Below are positions 54,961 through 64,000 of a DNA stretch of 64,000 bases, piece by piece (the first letter of the stretch is position 1; each line of letters starts with the position of its first letter). The position numbers and the translations under genes are program-made. This DNA is from a bacterium (lineage in GTDB: Bacteria > UBA8248), in NCBI GenBank assembly GCA_965219955.1, contig OZ244799.1:1792001-1856000 (forward strand), read 5' to 3'. The notes below the pieces were generated by a model, which ran no database searches, was not told where the DNA came from, and saw only the letters and a program-made list of their open reading frames with translations.

Positions 54961-55320
54961 GAGCGAGGAGGGGCTGTTGAAAAAGTCCTGTCCAACCTTC
55001 GAGATTGTTCGCCGTAGGGACAGGCCTCCGTGCCTGTCCTGACGAAGGACAACCACGAAGAGCCGGACAGGCACGGAGGCCTGTCCCTACAAAACCATCA
55101 CGTCTGCGCCGCATGAACCTCCTTGCCACCGATCCCGAAACCGGCTTTCTCAACAATCCCTTCTCGCTCGAAATTGACCACCGCCGGAATGACGCTCAAA
55201 GCTGTATTCGCCCGTAGGGGCGGTTCGCGAACCGCCCCTACAATCCCATCATGTCAAACTCTCACTCACCAGTCGGCTCCATGTACCGAATCAGGAAATC
55301 GGGACTTTCTCAACACCCCC
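54961..55320. repeat. Repeat mosaic (reversed relative of the 15500 element plus a REP)
   Basis: TIR pair at 54970-55160 with doublet 55014-55090; REP at 55214-55241; extra TIR end near 55318. Confidence 0.8.
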
Positions 55321-55420: not shown

Positions 55421-56809
55421 ATGCCTCAGAAAGCCGATTATCTTCTAAGCGGGGGAACCGTCATCACGGTGGATGAAGAGCGCCGCGTTATCCGGGACGG
55501 CGCCGTAGCCATTCGAGGAGACCGGATCGCCGCCGTCGGGAAGGCGGAGGAGTTGAGCCGGGAATTCACCGCCGGGCGCACGATTGACGCCAAGGGGAAG
55601 CTCATCATGCCCGGTTTCGTGAATTCCCACATGCATTTCTACCACACCATGCACCGGGGGCTGGCGCCGGAAAATCTCGGAGGTATGCTGTGGTCCGACT
55701 ACGTTCACAGATACATCGCCACGGTCCTCACGCCCGAGGATGAGATATACGGCGCGCTGACGATTCTCCTGGAAACCTTGAAGGCGGGCACCACCACCTT
55801 TCTCGAGGCGGGCTCCTACAACCCGGCGGCGGTGATCGAGGGAATCTCGCGCATCGGGATGCGCGGCCTGATGGGCAGGCGGTCCTTCGACGAGGAGCTT
55901 CTGGGCCACGGCATGCTCCTGGAGGATACCGAGACGTGCCTGAAGGAAAATCTCGCCTTCCTGGAGAAGTACAAGGACGGCTACAACGGCGGGTTGATCA
56001 AGGCGTGCGTGGACGTCGTCGGGCTCGGCCGCTGCTCGGACAAGCTGTATATCGATTCGAAAAAGATGGCGGATGATTACGGGACCACCCTGAACCTGCA
56101 CCTTGCGGCCATGTTCGAGGAAGTGACGGCCACGCGCATGCGCTATGGCCACCGTCCCGTCGAGCATATGTATCATCTGGACGTGCTCGGGCCGAATACG
56201 GTTCTCGTTCACATGGTTCACGTGAGCGAGCGGGAAATCGACATGCTGGCCGAAAAAGAGGCGCGGGTGATTCACTGTCCCTCGACGGCGCTCAAGATTT
56301 CCTACGGCAACGCGGCGTTCGGAAGATTCCCGGAGATGTTGGACAAGGGCGTCACCGTCGGAATCGGAAGCGACGCTTCGGACTGCTCGAACTATGCCGA
56401 CATGATTCGCGTCATGTACCTGGCCGGCGTGCTGCCCAAGGATTACCGCTACGACCCCGACGCCGGTTCCGCGGAGACGGCCATCGAGATGGCCACCATC
56501 AACGGAGCGCGCGCCATCGGGATGGACCATGAAATCGGTTCGCTCGAGACCGGCAAAAAGGCGGACGTGATCATCATCACCATGAAGCGGCCCGAGTGGT
56601 ACCCGCTCTACAGCGAGGTGCAGAACCTCGTGTATTCCGCCTCGGGCGATTCGGTGGAGACGGTGTTCATCGACGGGAAGGTCATCATGGAAGACCGCCG
56701 GGTGTTGACGGTGAATGAGGAGGAAATCCTGGAGAAGTGCCAGGAATGCGCGGCGGGAATCCTCAAGAGGAGCGGCGTGGAAGTACCGGGCAAATGGCCT
56801 ATCCTGTAA
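55421..56809 (+). CDS. Amidohydrolase (MTA/SAH deaminase/AtzB-like)
   Basis: PGFVNSHMH, VHMVH, HCPS, GIGSD, ATINGARA, GSLETGKKAD. Confidence 0.9.
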   Translation: MPQKADYLLSGGTVITVDEERRVIRDGAVAIRGDRIAAVGKAEELSREFTAGRTIDAKGKLIMPGFVNSHMHFYHTMHRGLAPENLGGMLWSDYVHRYIATVLTPEDEIYGALTILLETLKAGTTTFLEAGSYNPAAVIEGISRIGMRGLMGRRSFDEELLGHGMLLEDTETCLKENLAFLEKYKDGYNGGLIKACVDVVGLGRCSDKLYIDSKKMADDYGTTLNLHLAAMFEEVTATRMRYGHRPVEHMYHLDVLGPNTVLVHMVHVSEREIDMLAEKEARVIHCPSTALKISYGNAAFGRFPEMLDKGVTVGIGSDASDCSNYADMIRVMYLAGVLPKDYRYDPDAGSAETAIEMATINGARAIGMDHEIGSLETGKKADVIIITMKRPEWYPLYSEVQNLVYSASGDSVETVFIDGKVIMEDRRVLTVNEEEILEKCQECAAGILKRSGVEVPGKWPIL

Positions 56810-56810
56810 A

Positions 56811-56830
56811 AAAACCCGCTCGGTCCGGGG
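56811..56830. repeat. Left copy of a 20-bp inverted repeat
   Basis: aaaacccgctcggtccgggg; 19/20 match to the reverse complement of 63954-63973. Confidence 0.5.
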
Positions 56831-56984
56831 AGAAGCGTCAGGAGCGGATCACGAAACCGGAGGGCGAATGAACAAGATTTACGGCGTGAGATGAAGCGCA
56901 TTTCCACACGAATCGAATTTCCGAAAAATTCGATTAATAATTGTCATGAACCCGGTGTCGGCGCGATAGTATGATTGACTCCGT

Positions 56985-57012
56985 TTGTCTACGATAACTG
57001 GTTGTTTATAAT
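56985..57012 (+). promoter_or_regulatory. Putative integrase promoter
   Basis: TTGTCT-16 nt-TATAAT in an AT-rich spacer. Confidence 0.45.
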
Positions 57013-57130
57013 ACCATATTTCTTTTATTTCCTACCCGATGCCCCTTGCGCTTCCGCCGCACATATGCTTGGATAGCTCCCAGTTTGATGCCGCGCGTAT
57101 GCGTTTTGATTACAGACTCAGGGAGGCGGG

Positions 57131-58315
57131 ATGCCGAAGCGAAGCGATCTGAAACTCACGAAGCGCACCGTCGACGCTCTGGAGGTGGATTCCAAAGACG
57201 CCGTCTTCTGGGACCGGGAGCTGGCAGGCTTCGGGGTGCGCGTCCACGCCACCGGCCGGAAGACCTACGTGGTGCAGTCCCGGGGACCCGGAGGGCCGAA
57301 GCGCGTGACGCTCGGCCGTCACGGGGAGCTGTCTGCTGATGAGGCCAGGAAACAGGCCGCCCTCATTATCGACCGCATCAAGCGGGGCGAGGAGCCGGTG
57401 GCCGAACCGCCCGAGGCGGAGACCACCGTGGCCGGCCTTGCAGAGCGCTTCATGCGCACCCACGTGGAGAAACACCTGAAACCCGCCAGCATTGCCGCGT
57501 ACCGCACCGTGCTCGAGGGGCACATCCTGCCGGCCCTGGGCGGGATGGGGCTGGACGAGGTCGGCGGGGCGGAAGTCACGGCGCTCCATCACGGCCTTCG
57601 CGATACGCCGGTCCTGGCGAACCGGGCGGTCCACCTGCTCTCGCGCATGTTCGTACTTGCCGAGGCGTGGGAGCTGGTCCCGCCCGGGCGGAACCCCTGC
57701 CTCGCCGTGCGCCGCTACAGGACGCAGGCGCGCGAGCGGTTCCTGACGCCCGAGGAATACCGGCGCCTGGGCCGTGCGCTCGGGCAAGCCGAGGCGGAGG
57801 GTGGTGTATGGCCGCCCGCCGTCGCGGCCATCCGGCTGCTCGCACTTACCGGATGCCGCAGGGGCGAGATACTGAATCTCGGGTGGGACGACGTGGACCG
57901 CACGTCGGGGGACCTCAGACTTCGGGACGCCAAGGCGGGCCCCTGGATGGTCCCCCTGACGAAGCCCGTGCTCAGGGTGCTCGACGCCATCCCCCGCTCC
58001 GGGGAGAACCCATGGGTGATCGCGGGACAAAGACCCGGAAAACCCCTGACGGGCCTGCACCACTACTGGCGGCCCGTCCGGGAGCGGGCGGGGCTTCATG
58101 ACGTACGCATCCACGACCTCAGACACTCCTACGCATCGAGGGCGCTGGCTCTGGGCGAGAGCCTCTACACGATCGGGAAACTCCTCGGGCACACGAGCGT
58201 GGCGACGAGCGCGCGCTACGCGCACCTGATGCGAGACGCCGAGAGGGAGGCGGCGGTACGGGTGGGCGGGAGCATCGGCGCCCACGTCGCGAACGGGAGG
58301 GTTGAGCACGGATGA
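57131..58315 (+). CDS. Tyrosine integrase 1 (arm-binding domain plus catalytic domain)
   Basis: WDRELAGFGVRV; catalytic TGCRRGE, DAKAG, HDLRH, LGH and ARYAH intact. Confidence 0.93.
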   Translation: MPKRSDLKLTKRTVDALEVDSKDAVFWDRELAGFGVRVHATGRKTYVVQSRGPGGPKRVTLGRHGELSADEARKQAALIIDRIKRGEEPVAEPPEAETTVAGLAERFMRTHVEKHLKPASIAAYRTVLEGHILPALGGMGLDEVGGAEVTALHHGLRDTPVLANRAVHLLSRMFVLAEAWELVPPGRNPCLAVRRYRTQARERFLTPEEYRRLGRALGQAEAEGGVWPPAVAAIRLLALTGCRRGEILNLGWDDVDRTSGDLRLRDAKAGPWMVPLTKPVLRVLDAIPRSGENPWVIAGQRPGKPLTGLHHYWRPVRERAGLHDVRIHDLRHSYASRALALGESLYTIGKLLGHTSVATSARYAHLMRDAEREAAVRVGGSIGAHVANGRVEHG

Positions 58316-59481
58316 AGCAGCCCGTCATGAAAACGCTATCAAACCGCGCGGTCGGGAAGATCGCGGTGAAGAAGGACACCGTCTTCTGGGACGGGGAGCT
58401 CACGGGCTTCGGGGTCAGGGTCTATCCCACCGGGAGCAAGGTCTACGTCGCCCAGGCGCGGGGTCCCGAGGGTCCCAAACGCGTGGCCGTGGGCCGCCAC
58501 GGGGTGATCAACGCCGATGAGGCGAGAAAGCGCGCCGCCCATGTCATCGCGCGTATCAAGGCGGGCGAGGAGGCAATCCCCAAGCCCATGAAACCCGTGG
58601 GAGGCCCCACGGTGGCCGAGCTGTGCGCGCGCTACATGGAGGAATACGTCTCGGTGCGGTGCAAGCCGGGCACCGCCGCGCTCTACCGCTCGGTGATCGA
58701 CCGCCACGTCCTGCCCGCCCTGGGCAGGGCGCCGCTGGCCGCGCTCTCGCGCGCGCAGGTGGCGGAATTCCACGAGAGCCTTTATGAGACGCCCGCTGTG
58801 GCGAACATGGCGCTCCGCGTCCTCTCCGCGATGTACGAACTCGCACGGAAGTGGGAACTGGTGCCAGACGGATTATCAAACCCCTGCAAGGCCCTTGTGA
58901 AATATCCCGAGCGGAAGCGCGAGCGGTTCCTGACGGATTCGGAGTTCACCCGCCTGGGAGAGGCGCTCGATGAGGCGGAGGCCCGGGGCGGTGTTTCCGT
59001 GTCTGCTGTGGCCGCTATCCGCCTCCTGGCGCTGACGGGGTGCCGCAGGAGCGAGATACTCAAACTACGCCGGGAGGACGTGGCGCTCGAAGCTGCCGAG
59101 CTCAGGCTGCCCGATTCCAAGACGGGCGCGCGGGCGGTCCCGCTCCCGCCGCAGGCGGTCGAGCTTCTAGTGAATCTCCTGAGCGCCCACGACGGCCCCT
59201 GGGTCATCCCGGGCAGGAAGCCGGGGACGCGCTTGAGGAACATCGACGAGGCTTGGCGAATGATAAGGGAGCGCGCGAGCCTGGAAGGCGTAAGGCTGCA
59301 CGACCTGCGCCACTCCTGGGCCTCGCGGGCGCTTGCGCTCGGCGAGGGGCTGCCCGTCATCGGGAAGCTCCTGGGCCACAGCAGGATGGAGACGACGGCG
59401 CGCTACGCGCACCTCGCGCGCGACTCGGCCCAGGAGGCGGCCGGGCGGGTCGCGGAGAGCATCGCCGAAGACATGCTGTAG
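58312..59481 (+). CDS. Tyrosine integrase 2 (paralog)
   Basis: WDGELTGFGVRV; TGCRRSE, DSKTG, HDLRH, LGH, ARYAH; ATGA overlap with integrase 1. Confidence 0.93.
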   Translation: MKQPVMKTLSNRAVGKIAVKKDTVFWDGELTGFGVRVYPTGSKVYVAQARGPEGPKRVAVGRHGVINADEARKRAAHVIARIKAGEEAIPKPMKPVGGPTVAELCARYMEEYVSVRCKPGTAALYRSVIDRHVLPALGRAPLAALSRAQVAEFHESLYETPAVANMALRVLSAMYELARKWELVPDGLSNPCKALVKYPERKRERFLTDSEFTRLGEALDEAEARGGVSVSAVAAIRLLALTGCRRSEILKLRREDVALEAAELRLPDSKTGARAVPLPPQAVELLVNLLSAHDGPWVIPGRKPGTRLRNIDEAWRMIRERASLEGVRLHDLRHSWASRALALGEGLPVIGKLLGHSRMETTARYAHLARDSAQEAAGRVAESIAEDML

Positions 59482-59854
59482 GGTCGCAGCAGGCGTGCCC
59501 CCCGTGCGCATCCCTTCATCGCTGCTCCTTCCCGGGAGCAGGAAAAACCACAAGAATACACGATAAAGGCATGCAGCTGGTTCCATGGAATATGCACAGG
59601 ATATACGACTCCTGTATAATCGGAACAGACGTTCACCGGGAGGTGAGCGGGTTGCCCGCCTCCCCCGGGGGAAACCGCGGGAGAGTGAAAGGGAGGACCC
59701 GGAAAATGAGGCAGCGCGCGAGGGGAGCCCGCCCAGGCTTGCAGCCGGAGGCCGCATCCCGGACAGTCCGTATTCCGTCATCTCTCACCTGTTTCTACCG
59801 CCCCCGAAGTTATTCTTCTCCACGCAACGAGGTTCCGGTCCCGGAGAGGGCGGC

Positions 59855-60436
59855 ATGAAGATCAAGAAGAATTTTTTGAGCCGTATCGCGCGTCGCAAGG
59901 GTGCCGCACAGGCTGAATCGGAAGAGGGGCACGGGATTCCGCCTCCGGCGGCCATCGAGCCGTTCGTTCCGGATGCGACGGGAATCCCGAAGGACAAGGA
60001 GCTTGGTTCGCACCGGGAACTGGAACTGGTCGCTTCCGGGGAGCCTGCGCCAGCCGGTTCGGCGGACGGCGCGGACGCGGTTGACGGCGGTGATGCTCCC
60101 GCCCCGGAGGCATTGTCCGAACTACCTCGTGGAGCAGCGCCGTATGAGGAATATGGCCTCGAACTCGAGTTGCTGAGCGGCACGGAATCAGAAGCGTCGC
60201 CCGAAGAACCGAATCTGTCTCCGGATGGATCGTCTCTCGGAGAAGAAGCCGCCGCCTCAGCGGCAGCCGGTAGCGTCGTGCAGGCGTCTGCGCCCGAGCC
60301 GGTTCACGAAGAAGACGAGAGCGTCTCGCTCGTGTCCGAAAGCGCCGCGGATGCGGTTGCGCCCGAGCCGGAGGTCATACGGGAGAGCGAACCGGAAGCC
60401 GCCGATGACGCCGTTGCCGGGGATGGGAGAGCCTGA
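59855..60436 (+). CDS. Acidic low-complexity protein with a basic N-terminus (probable 5' part of a split gene)
   Basis: RBS GGAGAGG; MKIKKNFLSRIARRK then E/A/P-rich; repeat SAADAVAPEPEVIRESEP shared with the next ORF. Confidence 0.6.
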   Translation: MKIKKNFLSRIARRKGAAQAESEEGHGIPPPAAIEPFVPDATGIPKDKELGSHRELELVASGEPAPAGSADGADAVDGGDAPAPEALSELPRGAAPYEEYGLELELLSGTESEASPEEPNLSPDGSSLGEEAAASAAAGSVVQASAPEPVHEEDESVSLVSESAADAVAPEPEVIRESEPEAADDAVAGDGRA

Positions 60437-60447
60437 GGGCGCCGGTT

Positions 60448-60858
60448 TTGCAAGATTCGCCGGATGAAGACGAGCCGCCGTTCGCAGACGAAGAAGCCGG
60501 CCCGGAGACAGCCGGAAGCGCCGCGGAAGCTGCTGCGCCTGAACCGGAACTCTCCAGGGAGAGTGAGCCTGCGGGATATGTCACGGGGGAGGTCGGTGAG
60601 CCCCTCGCGGCTCCGGTGACGCAGGACTCGCCGGATGAGTCCTTCAAACCCGCTCCCGCGGAAAACGGTATTTTCCCCCTCGTGCGGGACGCTCGCGGCG
60701 CGTGGCGGCCCGGCAGGGGATTCAGCGGGGGTGAATTGCGCGAAGCGGGCCTGAGCCCCGCCGATTCCCTGCGCCTGCATATCCGCTTCGACAAGCGCCG
60801 CCCCAACGCGCACTCGGTGAACGTCGCAGCCCTCGAACAGGCGAAGAACGGCGTTTGA
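60448..60858 (+). CDS. Acidic linker plus ribosomal protein eL13 (L13e)-like domain
   Basis: PLVR..GRGFSGGELREAGLS..LHIRFDKRR..NVAAL (60670-60858) follows the eL13 pattern GRGFS-x2-EL-x2-AG..I-x-D-x-RR..NV-x2-L. Confidence 0.8.
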   Translation: MQDSPDEDEPPFADEEAGPETAGSAAEAAAPEPELSRESEPAGYVTGEVGEPLAAPVTQDSPDESFKPAPAENGIFPLVRDARGAWRPGRGFSGGELREAGLSPADSLRLHIRFDKRRPNAHSVNVAALEQAKNGV

Positions 60859-60890
60859 GGGCCATGAACCGGCAGTGAAAGGGAGCAACG

Positions 60891-60995
60891 ATGAGCGAAT
60901 CCGTATTGGAATTCAAGAATTGTCACGGCTCCACCAGGTACGACGAGGAGAACAGGACCCTGCACGGCAAGGTTCTCCCTGCGCAGGGGATTTGA
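60891..60995 (+). pseudogene. HicB-like antitoxin N-terminal remnant
   Basis: MSESVLEFKNCHGSTRYDEENRTLHGKVL; RBS GGGAG; stops after 34 aa. Confidence 0.6.
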
Positions 60996-61012
60996 TTGCA
61001 TGCGAAGCCGAA

Positions 61013-61084
61013 GAGGACGTGGCGCTCGAAGAAGCGGAACTGAGGCTCGCGAGCTCCAAGACGGGCGCGCGTGTCGTCTCGCTC
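61013..61084 (+). pseudogene. Internal integrase remnant
   Basis: EDVALEEAELRLASSKTGARVVSL, 19/24 aa identical to 59074-59145. Confidence 0.8.
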
Positions 61085-61397
61085 ACGGAGCCGAACGAGA
61101 GCCGTCTGCCGATCACCGGTCCCCCGGGGTGTGTCCGATTCTCCGGGTAAGCGGCGGTCCTGGGCATGGGCTTTCATGGTTCAACTCTACGATTTGCAGT
61201 TTGAATTCGAGTGTAATCAGGAGCTCTGTCAGCCGCAGGAGTCAAGGTTTGCAGCATCGCACGTTCCTGGTGGTGCGGATGCGTTCCTGTGGACATACCG
61301 GGCCGTTGCGACAAAGCGCAGAATGCAGATAACATCGACAATCATCCACTCTGGCCTTGGCCGGTTCGTTTGCGTTTATCGGGAAAGGGGAATTTCG

Positions 61398-63872
61398 ATG
61401 AGGATCGCTTTGGCGGCCGTCGCCGCTTATGCAGTGCTGACGGTGATGATATCCCATGCCGGGCCTCTCGCGCCGGCCCCGCAGGTTATCGCCGAATACG
61501 ACCGCAAGTTCATCGAGCGGTCGGGCGCCCAGACGCTCGAGGAACTGTTGGACACCGGCATCATCCGCTACTTTTTCACCGGGGGACGAGATCTGCTCGT
61601 ACTGGTGAACGGCAGACCCTACGCCACCACCGGCCATAATCTGGACTCCCTGCCGCTCTCGGCCGTGGAGCGCATCGAGGTTCTGAGAGGAGAGAGTCTG
61701 AGCACGCTGGGCGGCCACGCCGCCGTAAACGGCGCGTTCAATATCGTGCTCAGAAAGGACCTGAACGGCTTCGAGGTGCGTACGGTTACGCGGATGCCGA
61801 GCAAGGACGGTGGCGACGGCTGGCAGGGCAGCCTCTTCTGGGGCGGCGCCGTCGGCAAGGGAGGACGCATGACCATCGGCGTGGACATATTGGATCGTCA
61901 GGAAATCCTCGGAAAGGACCGGGAACACAGCCGCTCCGAGTGGGTCAAGGGTGGCAGCTTCAGCCAGGCCAGGAATATCAGCGTCGGCGGCAACACCGTC
62001 TATGTCACCCAGAAAGACGACCAGGGAGAATTTGTCGGCTTGAGGTCGGTACCACTGGGGGACTGCGACCCGTCGCTAGGCTATGCCGGCCCGCTCAGCA
62101 ATCCGCCCGGTATCCGCACGGGCGACGAGGGCTGTGGTTACGCCTATGGAAACATCTGGTGGGACACACCCAGCTATGAGCAGAAGAGCGCCGTCCTGAA
62201 CCTGGAGTATCCGCTCGGAGAGGACGCCAAATTCCATCTGGACGCGAACATCAGTCAGGGCCACGGGGCGTTCCGCTACGCGCCGTCGATCGACGTGTTT
62301 TCCTTTACGCCGAACGAGACATTGCTGGATGAGCTCAAGAGAGCAGCAGGCTCAGACTTCCAGTTGGGAGAAAACGACGAATTCTCCGTGGGGCACCGCT
62401 TCATCGGCCACGGCAACCGTGACTGGGTGACGGACACCGAGGAATACGACGTTTCCGCAAGCGTTGAGGGTCGTCTGGCTGAAGGTCTCGGCTATGATGT
62501 GCGCGTCAGTGCCTACCGGCTGGACCATTCCGTGTCCGGCGACACCTTCGTGCATGCGGGCAGGATCAGGGAAGAGATCGAGAGCGGGGGTTACAACATC
62601 GCGAACCCGTTGGACCCGCGTAATTCCGCGGCGATCGAGAACAGCAGCTTGCAAGAGGAAAAAGATTCCAGTTCGGACTATCTCGGCGCCCGGCTGGCGC
62701 TGGAGGGCATTGGCTTCTCCATCGGCGGGCGCCCGGCGGCATGGACCGCAGGGGTCGAACTGGGGAGTGTGGACGCGCACCGCCTCCTGGTCTTCCGGGA
62801 CAGGGACGGACGAACCCATAAAGTGACCGAGGTGCTCGGTTCCGGCGGCACCAGCTATGCCGGCAAGCGCGACATCGCCGCGGCCTTTTGGGAGATGTCC
62901 CTGCCGCTGGCCGACAATCTGGAAATCAGGGTCGGGGGACGCGGCGATGAATACGACGATATCGGCGGATTGGAATCGTGGCGTTTTGGAGCCGAATACC
63001 GGCTGACCGGCATCGTCACGCTGCGCGGCTCTTGGAGCGCGGGCGACGCGTCGCCCTCCATGAGGCACCTCTACAGCGACGCGGCGCAGACCCACCCTTA
63101 TGTCGTTTGCGACCCCGGGAGCGGACCGCCGCCCCGCACATGCGATAGTCCGAACTACCGGCAGGTGACGCGCGAGACGAGCGGCAACCCGGGTCTCGAC
63201 CCCTCGGGCTCCGAGATGCTCTCTTTGGGCGCCGAGGCCCGCAAAGGGCCGTTCTATCTCGTCGCGGACTGGTACCGGCTCACAACATCCGACCAGGCGG
63301 GGCAGAACAGCGCCACCTGGGCCATGTTGAACCTGCAAGAATGCCAGGGCGGTAACCGAAACGACTGCATCGAGCGCATCGGCGGCGACATCACCATTCA
63401 CCACAGCTTTGCGAACATTGTCGATACCGATATTTCGGGCGTGAATTTCCGGTACGGCGCGCGGACGAGAACGGCGTGGGGCGTTATCGGGATGCGCGGG
63501 TTCTGGCGGCGCGTCATCAGCTCCGAACAGCAAATCGCGGACGAAAAGCAGCGGTATCCCCTCCCCAAGGATGCCGTCCGCGTCGTCGTCTCGGCCGGGC
63601 GCGGCAACCTCACCGCTTTCTGGTCCACGAACTACCGCTCCGAAATCGAGAATCAGTCGGACGAAGGGAGGTTCAAGTCCTGGACCGGCCACGATGTAAC
63701 ACTCGACTGGAAGCGGCCGCTGGGGTGGGAAGACGTGCGGGTGACCGCAGGCGTGTACAACGTCACCGATTCCAAGCTCTCGACGAATACAGCCAACCCC
63801 TCCCTTGTGGACGGACCCACCGCGGCCGGTTGGGGCCGCACCTTCTTCCTCACCCTCAACATGCGGTTCTGA
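61398..63872 (+). CDS. TonB-dependent receptor-like outer-membrane protein
   Basis: Signal peptide, LVLVNGR..LPLSAVERIEVLR, GNPGLDP, GVYNVTD, C-terminal FFLTLNMRF. Confidence 0.88.
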   Translation: MRIALAAVAAYAVLTVMISHAGPLAPAPQVIAEYDRKFIERSGAQTLEELLDTGIIRYFFTGGRDLLVLVNGRPYATTGHNLDSLPLSAVERIEVLRGESLSTLGGHAAVNGAFNIVLRKDLNGFEVRTVTRMPSKDGGDGWQGSLFWGGAVGKGGRMTIGVDILDRQEILGKDREHSRSEWVKGGSFSQARNISVGGNTVYVTQKDDQGEFVGLRSVPLGDCDPSLGYAGPLSNPPGIRTGDEGCGYAYGNIWWDTPSYEQKSAVLNLEYPLGEDAKFHLDANISQGHGAFRYAPSIDVFSFTPNETLLDELKRAAGSDFQLGENDEFSVGHRFIGHGNRDWVTDTEEYDVSASVEGRLAEGLGYDVRVSAYRLDHSVSGDTFVHAGRIREEIESGGYNIANPLDPRNSAAIENSSLQEEKDSSSDYLGARLALEGIGFSIGGRPAAWTAGVELGSVDAHRLLVFRDRDGRTHKVTEVLGSGGTSYAGKRDIAAAFWEMSLPLADNLEIRVGGRGDEYDDIGGLESWRFGAEYRLTGIVTLRGSWSAGDASPSMRHLYSDAAQTHPYVVCDPGSGPPPRTCDSPNYRQVTRETSGNPGLDPSGSEMLSLGAEARKGPFYLVADWYRLTTSDQAGQNSATWAMLNLQECQGGNRNDCIERIGGDITIHHSFANIVDTDISGVNFRYGARTRTAWGVIGMRGFWRRVISSEQQIADEKQRYPLPKDAVRVVVSAGRGNLTAFWSTNYRSEIENQSDEGRFKSWTGHDVTLDWKRPLGWEDVRVTAGVYNVTDSKLSTNTANPSLVDGPTAAGWGRTFFLTLNMRF

Positions 63873-63953
63873 GGGTCCGTTCGAGAATCTTCAGGGACAG
63901 ACGGTGGAGCGGAATCCGGTCGATGATGAATGCGGTTTTCCTGTAACTCCAAC

Positions 63954-63973
63954 CCCCGGTCCGAGCGGGTTTT
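63954..63973. repeat. Right copy of the 20-bp inverted repeat
   Basis: ccccggtccgagcgggtttt. Confidence 0.5.
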
Positions 63974-64000
63974 CTCCATCGCCGGCGTCCGCCGCTCCAT

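What the first reader, a model, noticed from the sequence alone, without database searches (positions are those of the whole stretch)
59855..60858. Archaeal/eukaryotic ribosomal protein eL13-like domain in a bacterial integrase island
Seen: the last ~62 aa (60670-60858) read IFPLVRDARGAWRPGRGFSGGELREAGLSPADSLRLHIRFDKRRPNAHSVNVAALEQ. Known: eL13 is a large-subunit protein of eukaryotes and some archaea, is absent from bacterial ribosomes, and has the core GRGFS/EL/AG/D-RR/NV pattern. Here it follows a long acidic, repetitive tether and a short basic N-terminus, directly downstream of two integrases. Inference: a co-opted RNA-binding module, for example a regulator of the element, an RNA or ribosome effector, or a host-directed eukaryote-like protein.
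Basis: partly seen in the sequence, partly recalled or inferred. Interest (0 to 1): 0.85.

Follow-up and report, generated by a model that had tools for sequence, protein, structure and literature searches.

The report
Broken bacterial gene with eL13-like domain
This is a frameshifted spare copy of a gene found only in one genus of sponge-associated bacteria; its last part is a true relative of the core of the archaeal/eukaryotic ribosomal protein eL13, reused outside the ribosome and closest to a module on a partner protein of an anti-phage helicase.

Summary
The eL13-like sequence is real. Pfam PF01294 gives E 4.9e-6 for the last 62 aa. The archaeal L13e model gives E 7e-14 for the intact paralog. 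A family profile hits eL13 chains in the PDB (E 2e-10), and an AlphaFold model matches only eL13 chains in the top 50.

The reported ORF is not one frame. The window has one base fewer than intact relatives near 60421-60424, so translation stops at 60436, before the domain. Contigs from four public runs show the same sequence, so this is not an assembly error.

The gene is one of three paralogs in this genome, of which one is intact (416 aa). Among the 51 genomes of its phylum searched, the family occurs only in its own genus. The main copy lies in a tRNA-Asn hotspot with hicAB, not in an integrase island. The integrases and TonB receptor are peculiar to this copy.

The nearest relatives of the domain are C-terminal modules of 500-970 aa, Ig-rich proteins encoded directly upstream of DruE-like helicases (Druantia III-like). 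One sister genome carries such a pair in the same tRNA-Asn slot.

Most likely role: a nucleic-acid-binding module on a polyanionic tail, not a ribosomal protein. Function is untested.

The parts
57131..58315 (+). Tyrosine integrase 1 of a tandem pair (394 aa)
   Evidence: Pfam Phage_integrase E 1.3e-17 and Arm-DNA-bind_3 E 4.8e-12. Five further paralogous tandem pairs, 70-75% identical, occur elsewhere in the genome.
58312..59481 (+). Tyrosine integrase 2 of the tandem pair (389 aa)
   Evidence: Pfam Phage_integrase E 3.2e-22.
59855..60436 (+). ORF1: basic N-terminus plus the acidic part of the family gene (193 aa), ended early by TGA
   Evidence: It is 65% identical to the N-terminal 178 aa of family member P0086. 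No Pfam family.
60421..60424 (+). Place of the frameshift: one base fewer than in intact relatives
   Evidence: blastn alignments to L041, L018, L026, L043 and L037/L020 each put a 1-nt gap here. Contigs of runs X1, X7, X10 and X13 cover it with 0 gaps.
60448..60858 (+). ORF2: the rest of the acidic region plus the eL13-like domain (136 aa from a TTG; the frame is open from about 60418)
   Evidence: It is 74-77% identical to the C-terminal ~140 aa of P0094, P0096 and others.
60655..60855 (+). eL13/L13e-like domain (67 aa; Pfam match at 60703-60816)
   Evidence: Pfam. NF008914 41.8 bits, E 2.7e-10. Gap-free alignment with 56 relatives. Model of the paralog's domain has pLDDT 87. The top 50 PDB fold hits are all eL13.
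60891..60995 (+). Remnant of a hicB antitoxin gene (34 codons and a stop)
   Evidence: The translation resembles the first ~30 aa of the HicB ORF downstream of the intact paralog. Full-length HicB: Pfam E 2e-18. The remnant itself has no Pfam hit.
61013..61083 (+). Integrase gene fragment
   Evidence: 93% identical to G000 2736809-2736879 and 82% identical to window 59074-59148, both inside integrase genes.
61410..63872 (+). TonB-dependent receptor (start uncertain; the ORF is open from 61071)
   Evidence: Pfam TonB_dep_Rec_b-barrel E 1.3e-19 and Plug E 1.1e-7. A 92% identical copy lies at G000 2234524-2237435.

Best explanation
The feature is a broken, secondary copy of an accessory gene family. 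Among the 51 genomes of its phylum searched, the family is confined to one genus of uncultured bacteria. Record titles call its relatives Nitrospinota, and the runs that hold the stretch are labelled sponge or marine metagenome. Intact members are 230-541 aa. They have a 16-aa basic N-terminus, a long acidic and proline-rich middle (inferred to be disordered), and a basic C-terminal domain of 55-67 aa. That domain is a true homologue, in sequence and in predicted fold, of the globular core of ribosomal protein eL13/L13e. In the window copy a 1-nt deficit at about 60421-60424 stops translation at 60436, before the domain. This copy is therefore most likely a pseudogene or yields only a truncated acidic protein. 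It arose by segmental duplication: like the second copy, it carries a 34-35-codon hicB remnant. It landed next to a tandem integrase pair. Inferred, not shown: the domain is a small nucleic-acid-binding module (RNA or ssDNA) rather than a ribosomal protein. The genus probably acquired it from the C-terminal module of DruH-position proteins of Druantia III-like defence systems. The polyanionic tail may shield or regulate that binding.
For: Homology. Pfam PF01294 gives E 4.9e-6, and 30.8 and 29.7 bits for the two paralogs. NCBIfam NF008914 gives E 7.2e-14 and 51 bits for the intact paralog P0001. The family profile A2 against PDB sequences hits eL13 chains from E 2.1e-10. The AF2 model has pLDDT 87.2, and the top 50 Foldseek PDB hits are all eL13 chains with TMq 0.62-0.77.
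Frameshift. Three-frame translation and 1-nt gaps against 5 distinct relatives locate it. Contigs from 4 runs of 3 studies bridge the place with 0 gaps, including a variant with 5 SNPs and an RNA library.
Family. There are 3 loci in this genome. 104 homologues were found at E<=0.001 among 382 candidates. 19 of 51 phylum genomes have a match, all in genus g1 (18 of 22 others plus G000), and 0 of 28 genomes in 14 other genera do. One of the 18 (G007) is a long-family protein, not the acidic type. I inspected 15 of the other 17 and all were acidic-type.
Context. hicA+hicB follow the gene in 6 of 14 loci, hicB alone in 3, a remnant in 2, and neither in 3. HicA: Pfam E 5.5e-10. HicB: E 2e-18. A tRNA-Asn lies beside the main copy. 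The neighbours are IlvD, PEGA, luciferase-like, FMN reductase, alpha/beta hydrolase and NmrA-like proteins.
Nearest relatives. The best non-family hits of the profile are C-termini of 689-971 aa proteins (90-64 bits). In the domain tree the family is one clade (SH-aLRT 98) placed among the long-protein domains, with 61 of 64 short archaeal-type rows on the other side. G007 carries a long-protein plus DruE pair between the same tRNA-Asn and the same right flank.
Charge pattern of P0001: +6 (N-terminus), -85 (middle), +9 (domain).
Against: The Pfam match covers only 38 of 180 model positions, and for ORF2 it is 0.1 bit under the gathering score. The NCBIfam score (51 bits) is far under the 96-bit equivalog cut-off. 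The AF2 alignment contained archaeal-type L13e-like sequences, so the fold match is not independent of the sequence match. No binding or function was tested. The branches that place the family among the long-protein domains are weak (SH-aLRT 64-74, 71 columns). The family's N-terminus shows no relation to the long family's (hhalign probability 0.6%). The gene is oriented opposite to the Druantia-like pair relative to the tRNA, so a simple deletion origin is not supported. G000 has no DruE. The window copy keeps all six residues that are invariant across 59 aligned domains, and contigs of an RNA library cover it, so a residual role of ORF2 cannot be excluded. No contig bridges the repeated 31-mer at 60443-60473.
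Confidence: 0.6

Rival explanations
1. The intact family protein is a ribosome-associated factor. The eL13-like domain docks on bacterial 23S rRNA at the site that L13e occupies in archaea and holds an acidic tail at the subunit surface. The window copy would be a decayed duplicate of such a gene.
For: The domain is homologous to the part of L13e kept in the short archaeal-type proteins. Passages of 10.1101/2021.01.31.429008 say that the N-terminal loop and first helix of archaeal L13e reach into the 50S core. In related long proteins the same position can hold S17, NusB or Rpb6/omega domains.
Against: The gene is accessory: it is missing from 4 of 22 genus genomes, including the one-contig, 99%-complete G001. 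It lies in a tRNA hotspot with a toxin-antitoxin pair, not with ribosomal genes. No binding data exist. Whether the rRNA contact site exists in bacterial 23S was not examined.
Confidence: 0.15
2. The split gene still works. ORF2 (from TTG 60448 or GTG 60614) is translated on its own and supplies a free eL13-like domain, or the two halves act together.
For: ORF2 keeps all six residues invariant in the 59-sequence alignment. The frameshift is shared by a strain variant with 5 SNPs. Contigs of an RNA library cover 59600-60751 and 60801-61040. Short forms (102 and 139 aa) exist in the protein library.
Against: There is no ATG in ORF2, and by eye I saw no ribosome-binding site at a usual distance from the TTG. 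Its L13e score is the lowest of the 25 acidic-family matches (41.8 against 48-62 bits). Positions that are at least 90% conserved in the family are changed (R50 to P, R25 to G). RNA-library contigs do not prove transcription, as one search's own note says. The short database forms may be fragments.
Confidence: 0.15
3. It is a eukaryote-like protein taken from the sponge host and delivered to host cells, where it acts on host ribosomes or RNA.
For: The runs that hold the stretch are labelled sponge metagenome. The family is confined to one genus. eL13 is otherwise a eukaryotic and archaeal protein (established knowledge).
Against: The domain scores higher against the archaeal model than against the Pfam model. 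The 150 best library hits show no eukaryote-type architecture; they are bacterial-type long proteins or short archaeal-type proteins. No hydrophobic signal sequence is visible by eye, and no secretion genes appear in the inspected flanks.
Confidence: 0.05
4. It is an artefact: a chance motif, a sequencing-error frameshift, or a chimeric join of two paralogs.
For: The contigs break at a repeated 31-mer (60443-60473), so no single short-read contig joins the two halves. The second copy (L002/L026) has a shift in a run of five G, and an otherwise identical intact protein, P0091, exists.
Against: The sequence and fold statistics argue against chance. Four runs show the same sequence at the shift with 0 gaps. 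Depth is similar on both sides of the break. The genome holds only three family loci, and the other two have their own two halves.
Confidence: 0.03

Closest known systems
Ribosomal protein eL13 / archaeal L13e (Pfam PF01294; NCBIfam NF008914)
   Same: The last 55-67 aa align without gaps to short L13e-type proteins at 35-48% identity. The conserved G-[KR]-G-F-S...E-L...D-x-R-R...N pattern is present. The predicted fold matches eL13 chains with TMq 0.62-0.77.
   Different: Only the core is present (38 of 180 Pfam positions). It sits at the end of an acidic 230-541 aa protein in a bacterium. The score is far under the NCBIfam equivalog cut-off (51 against 96 bits). The gene is accessory, lies beside a toxin-antitoxin pair, and is broken in this window.
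C-terminal module of DruH-position proteins in Druantia type III-like two-gene systems (long family, e.g. P0109, P0131, L056:5100-6941)
   Same: These are the closest relatives of the domain by profile score (90-64 bits) and by tree position. In G007 such a gene occupies the same tRNA-Asn slot of the same genus.
   Different: The long proteins have a conserved core of about 450 aa made of beta-sandwich domains (model pLDDT 78). They are followed directly by a DruE-like helicase (PADLOC DruE3 E 3e-154). The acidic family has neither the core nor a DruE in the genome, and the N-termini are unrelated. PADLOC's own models, DruH included, do not hit the long proteins.
Database entries named 'ribosomal protein L13e' in MAGs labelled Nitrospinae/Nitrospinota or Rhodospirillaceae bacterium (P0027, P0031, P0069, P0085)
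   Same: Same family and same architecture, with 75-86% identity in the domain.
   Different: Those copies are intact. The name is an automatic label, not a tested function. Four full-text searches found no paper that describes them.

Membership tests
Ribosomal protein eL13/L13e | Score at or above Pfam PF01294's gathering cut-off (24.9 bits) | tested here: inconclusive
   ORF2 scores 24.8 bits (under), the last 62 aa alone 27.0 bits (over). The paralogs score 30.8 and 29.7 bits (over) and the window copy in six-frame search 23.5 bits (under). The match is local, covering 38 of 180 positions.
Ribosomal protein eL13/L13e | Equivalog score for archaeal L13e (NCBIfam NF008914, cut-off 96 bits) | tested here: not met
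   P0001 scores 51.2 bits. The window copy scores 41.8 bits, and 0 of 51 genomes are over the cut-off.
Ribosomal protein eL13/L13e | Fold of the eL13 core | tested here: met
   AF2 model with pLDDT 87.2. The top 50 PDB matches are all eL13, with probability 1.00 and TMq 0.62-0.77. Caveat: the alignment held L13e-like sequences.
Ribosomal protein eL13/L13e | Small, basic, stand-alone protein that is a stoichiometric part of the large subunit | tested here: not met
   Architecture: the whole protein has net charge -70 and pI 4.1. The gene is absent from 4 of 22 genus genomes. Incorporation into ribosomes itself cannot be tested with these tools.
DruH of Druantia type III | Match to PADLOC DruH models | tested here: not met
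   P0001 has 0 PADLOC families at E<=0.01.
DruH of Druantia type III | Encoded next to a DruE helicase | tested here: not met
   tblastn with the G007 DruE-like protein finds only one weak helicase hit in G000 (28% over 200 aa, E 2e-6), far from all three loci.
   Of 30 loci (23 distinct places), 1 has a similar integrase fragment and 0 have the receptor.

The most novel reading that the evidence does not exclude
The eL13 core fold is a mobile nucleic-acid- or ribosome-docking module in bacterial conflict systems. A large family of DruH-position proteins next to DruE-like helicases usually ends in it (107 of 120 members examined). Occasionally the family carries S17, NusB or RNA-polymerase-omega domains instead or in addition. 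This suggests that this Druantia III-like branch reads or docks on the translation and transcription machinery, or on nucleic acid shaped like it. The acidic family of this sponge-associated genus would then be a free-standing derivative of that module. It would bind the same target from the same tRNA-Asn hotspot, as a regulator, a decoy or a ribosome-tethered polyanion.
Probability: 0.2. Interest if true: 0.8.

Novelty: new variant of a known kind. Interest (0 to 1): 0.55.

Why it matters
eL13 is textbook-absent from bacteria. Here its core fold turns up in bacteria in two non-ribosomal settings. One is a genus-restricted acidic protein of sponge-associated bacteria. The other is the C-terminus of the partner protein of a DruE-like defence helicase. 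If the module binds RNA, ssDNA or ribosomes, it gives a handle on what this Druantia-like branch senses. It would also show a ribosomal-protein fold being recruited into bacterial conflict systems. For annotation, database entries that call these proteins 'ribosomal protein L13e' are misleading. For this window itself the result is sobering: the copy is broken, and its integrase and TonB neighbours are incidental.

Tried and rejected
1. One continuous ORF at 59855-60858: rejected.

2. Assembly-error frameshift: rejected for the window copy.

3. Programmed frameshifting: no canonical slippery heptamer seen by eye, and intact relatives read straight through. Not pursued further.

4. Acidic family as a deletion derivative of the long family: the N-termini are unrelated (hhalign probability 0.6%) and the orientation relative to the tRNA is opposite. 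Not supported.

5. Association with TonB or metal uptake. Other type-2 loci carry an autotransporter, a TbpB-like lipoprotein, a subtilase, an ABC-3 permease and HlyD. No recurrent partner emerged.

6. The IcmE/DotG hit of the family profile (E 1.5e-11) consists of 16 weak repeat matches to GFSxxELxxAG, none significant alone. I treated it as a repeat artefact.

7. PADLOC gave no hit for P0001 or the long proteins.

8. The ESM Atlas gave no usable hit for P0131 or P0001.

9. tblastn of P0252 against plasmids gave no match.

10. The first metagenome scan with P0252 alone found nothing. The second, with alignment A4, found 12 loci.

11. Rfam found no family at the gathering score in 56500-62000.

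12. Literature. Searches for L13e-like / eL13-like / L13e domain / Ribosomal_L13e / PF01294 found 2 irrelevant papers. A search for 'ribosomal protein L13e' + bacteria + horizontal gene transfer found 1 irrelevant paper. The Druantia and YprA papers listed show 0 occurrences of 'ribosomal protein'. In PMC12458937 the words ribosomal, L13, NusB, omega, DruH and S17 were not found. So I found nothing in print on bacterial eL13-like proteins.

13. RNA evidence. Contigs of RNA library X13 cover most of the stretch. No silent control stretch could be laid, so transcription is not shown.

Full report
WHAT IS IN THE SEQUENCE. The interval 59855-60858 is 1004 nt and is not one reading frame. From ATG 59855, frame 2 encodes 193 aa. 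It starts MKIKKNFLSRIARRK, continues as an acidic stretch, and ends at TGA 60434-60436. That frame is open from about 60418, and its first start codon is TTG 60448 (136 aa, ending at 60858).

Short peptide motifs (APEPE..ESEPE, QDSPDE) occur in both pieces, so they were once one gene. blastn alignments to five distinct intact relatives (L041, L018, L026, L043, L037=L020) each place a single 1-nt gap in the window at GATG-GGAGAG, about 60421-60424.

IS THE FRAMESHIFT REAL? Thirteen public runs hold half or more of the stretch's sampled words; they are labelled sponge or marine metagenome, or coded 'organism A'. I laid four of them, from three studies. Contigs X1-1 (59600-60472), X7-15, X10-8 and X13-11 (60317-60472) cover the place with 0 gaps, and table 4 lists no inserted or deleted letters. 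X10 and X13 differ from the window by 5-6 single letters, so they are another strain and not the source. X7 may be the source sample.

All contigs break at 60443-60473, a 31-mer shared with the second paralog. No short-read contig therefore joins the two halves. Depths are similar on both sides, and the genome holds only three family loci, each with its own two halves. I take the frameshift as real and the join as correct.

IS THE eL13 RESEMBLANCE REAL? Yes.
- Pfam Ribosomal_L13e: E 4.9e-6 and 27.0 bits for the last 62 aa; 24.8 bits for ORF2 against a cut-off of 24.9; model positions 62-99 of 180.
- The archaeal model NF008914: E 7.2e-14 and 51 bits for the intact paralog; 41.8 bits for the window copy. 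All are far under the 96-bit equivalog cut-off.
- A 14-sequence family profile (A2) finds 71 distinct PDB sequences at E<=1. Fifty-eight of the 60 shown are eL13 chains, from E 2.1e-10. The two IcmE/DotG rows at the top are sums of weak repeat matches.
- The 67-aa domain aligns without gaps to 48 short L13e-type proteins at 35-48% identity. G22, S24, E27, D46, R49 and N56 are invariant, and the window copy keeps all six.
- An AF2 model of the paralog's domain has pLDDT 87.2. Its top 50 Foldseek matches in the PDB are all eL13 chains (probability 1.00, TMq 0.62-0.77). The alignment contained L13e-like sequences, so this is not independent of the sequence evidence.

THE FAMILY. The genome (one contig, 4.28 Mb, 61% G+C) has three loci:
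- An intact 416-aa gene at 2098595-2099842 (P0001).
- A second copy near 1944400, split by a shift in a run of five G. An otherwise identical intact 373-aa protein, P0091, exists in the library.
- The window copy.

A word-indexed search with the domain found 104 proteins at E<=0.001 among 382 candidates. They are 230-541 aa, and 103 of them have PF01294 precomputed. Four are named 'ribosomal protein L13e' by NCBI in MAGs labelled Nitrospinae/Nitrospinota or Rhodospirillaceae bacterium. All share three parts: an N-terminus like M(N)IKKNFLSRIARRK...EIPPPxAIEP, an acidic middle of variable length, and the domain. In P0001 the three parts carry net charges of +6, -85 (28% D+E, 15% P) and +9.

Genome searches gave 19 of 41 relatives and 19 of 51 genomes of the phylum with a match. 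All are in genus g1 (18 of 22 others plus G000), and 0 of 28 genomes in 14 other genera have one. One of the 18 (G007) proved to be a different, long protein. I inspected 15 of the other 17 and all are acidic-type. G018 and G021 were not inspected. Four genus genomes lack any match, including the one-contig, 99%-complete G001. The gene is therefore accessory. Record titles of relatives read 'MAG: Nitrospinota bacterium', 'uncultured Nitrospinaceae bacterium' or plain 'bacterium'.

CONTEXT. In 14 loci the gene is followed by hicA+hicB in 6, by hicB alone about 35 nt downstream in 3, and by a 34-35-codon hicB remnant in 2 (the window and the second copy). Three loci have neither. HicA: Pfam E 5.5e-10. 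HicB: E 2e-18.

The main copy lies beside a tRNA-Asn(GTT) gene. It sits in a conserved neighbourhood of IlvD, a PEGA protein, a luciferase-like oxidoreductase, an FMN reductase, an alpha/beta hydrolase and an NmrA-like protein. None of these suggests a functional link.

The window copy lies 374 nt after a tandem pair of tyrosine integrases. It is followed by the hicB remnant, a 71-nt integrase fragment and a TonB-dependent receptor. Among 30 fetched family loci (23 distinct places), only L043 has a similar integrase, and that is a fragment; none has the receptor. Other loci of the window's subtype carry an autotransporter, a TbpB-like lipoprotein, a subtilase, an ABC-3 permease and HlyD. The integrase and TonB setting is thus incidental. 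The window copy is a segmental duplicate in a rearranged region.

SIGNS OF DECAY. The window copy has the lowest NF008914 score of the 25 acidic-family matches (41.8 against 48-62 bits). It also differs at positions that are at least 90% conserved within the family: GKGFSR to GRGFSG, and RRRN to RRPN. ORF2 contains no ATG.

THE WIDER PICTURE. A profile search of 1.84 billion representatives found 765 proteins at E<=0.001, 55 at <=1e-10 and 14 at <=1e-30. Beyond the family itself, the best hits fall into two groups:
(a) the C-termini of 500-970 aa proteins;
(b) short proteins of 55-180 aa of the archaeal L13e type, scoring 69-75 bits against NF008914. One named locus of this group is a Hydrothermarchaeota MAG.

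The long proteins form a large family: 237 proteins at E<=0.001, with 120 listed. Of those 120, 107 carry the eL13-like C-terminus by my HMM. Others carry Ribosomal_S17 (P0340, E 2.4e-30), NusB in front of the eL13-like domain (P0335, E 2.1e-27), or RNA_pol_Rpb6/omega (G009, E 6.5e-8).

The core of the long family is predicted to be a chain of beta-sandwich domains (pLDDT 78; PDB matches are generic multi-Ig proteins with low global TM). In G007 and G009 the gene is followed directly by a 1387-1425 aa helicase. For G007 this helicase matches PADLOC DruE3/DruE1 at E 3e-154, and Pfam DEAD, Helicase_C and MZB.

Of 12 metagenome loci, 9 have a DruE-like ORF starting where the long gene ends, 2 end at the contig end, and 1 is a weak match. 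PADLOC has no model that hits the long protein itself.

Passages of 10.64898/2026.05.12.722862 describe E. coli DruH as an N-terminal globular domain, six Ig-like subdomains and a C-terminal domain, with ssDNA bound between Ig5 and the C-terminal domain. Passages of PMC12458937 mention a distinct Druantia III-like branch whose helicases mostly lack nuclease domains. The long family is therefore DruH-like in gene position and predicted architecture, not by sequence.

LINK TO THE FINDING. In a tree of 171 domain sequences (71 columns, quick search) the acidic family is one clade (SH-aLRT 98). It sits among long-family domains, but on weak branches (64-74). Sixty-one of 64 short rows lie on the other side.

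In G007 the long gene and its DruE-like partner lie between the same tRNA-Asn and the same right flank that enclose the acidic gene and hicAB in G000, G002, G013 and G020. G000 has no DruE. The N-termini of the two families are unrelated, and the genes are oppositely oriented relative to the tRNA. A common origin of the domain is therefore plausible, but a simple deletion origin is not.

MECHANISM (INFERRED). The domain is small and basic, and its homologues contact nucleic acid: rRNA in ribosomes, and probably DNA or RNA in the DruH-position proteins. I therefore expect it to bind RNA or ssDNA. The polyanionic, proline-rich middle could act as an entropic spacer or as an intramolecular competitor for the basic domain. 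The basic N-terminus is conserved but unexplained.

The window copy, truncated before the domain, most likely does nothing, or makes only the acidic part. What is shown: homology, fold prediction, the frameshift, the distribution and the contexts. What is inferred: binding, role and origin.

NOVELTY. The proteins already exist in databases under an automatic 'ribosomal protein L13e' name. Four full-text searches found no description of bacterial eL13-like proteins or of ribosomal-type C-termini on DruE partners (word search in PMC12458937). Supplements were closed. I rate the family as a new variant of a known kind (a known fold in a new architecture and setting). The window copy itself is a broken member.

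Noticed in passing
L056:5100-11202 (G007); L059:3742-10498 (G009); L060-L070: A large family of 500-970 aa, Ig-rich proteins is encoded directly upstream of DruE-like helicases. This holds in 2 of 2 genus loci and in 9 of 12 metagenome loci; 2 of the 12 end at the contig end and 1 is a weak match. Of 120 members, 107 end in the eL13-like domain. Others carry S17, NusB plus the eL13-like domain, or an RNA polymerase omega (Rpb6) domain. PADLOC has no model for the first gene.
   Followed up: partly
G000:C1:1943400-1944700 (L002:537-1659; L026): The second paralog is also split, by one extra base in a run of five G. The library protein P0091 (373 aa) is 100% identical over the first 287 aa and reads through. 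Whether this shift is real or an assembly error was not tested.
   Followed up: partly
window 55001-55320: A short interspersed repeat of roughly 80-160 nt matches well over a hundred places around the genome, on both strands, at 75-100% identity. It looks like a REP- or MITE-type element.
   Followed up: no
window 57131-59481: The tandem integrase pair has five further paralogous pairs in the genome (near 2.55, 2.56, 2.63, 2.74 and 3.69 Mb; 70-75% identity). A 71-nt integrase fragment lies at 61013-61083.
   Followed up: no
window 61078-64000 and beyond: The TonB-dependent receptor gene has a 92% identical second copy at G000 2234524-2237435.
   Followed up: no
L026:10487-15090: Beside the second paralog lie a TbpB-like lipoprotein (Pfam TbpB_B_D E 7.5e-7) and a 1166-aa autotransporter (E 2.3e-25).
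   Followed up: no
profile A2 against PDB: The GFSxxELxxAG motif of the domain gives 16 weak matches to the decapeptide repeats of Legionella IcmE/DotG. These sum to E 1.5e-11, but no single stretch is significant, so this is a repeat artefact and not homology.
   Followed up: partly
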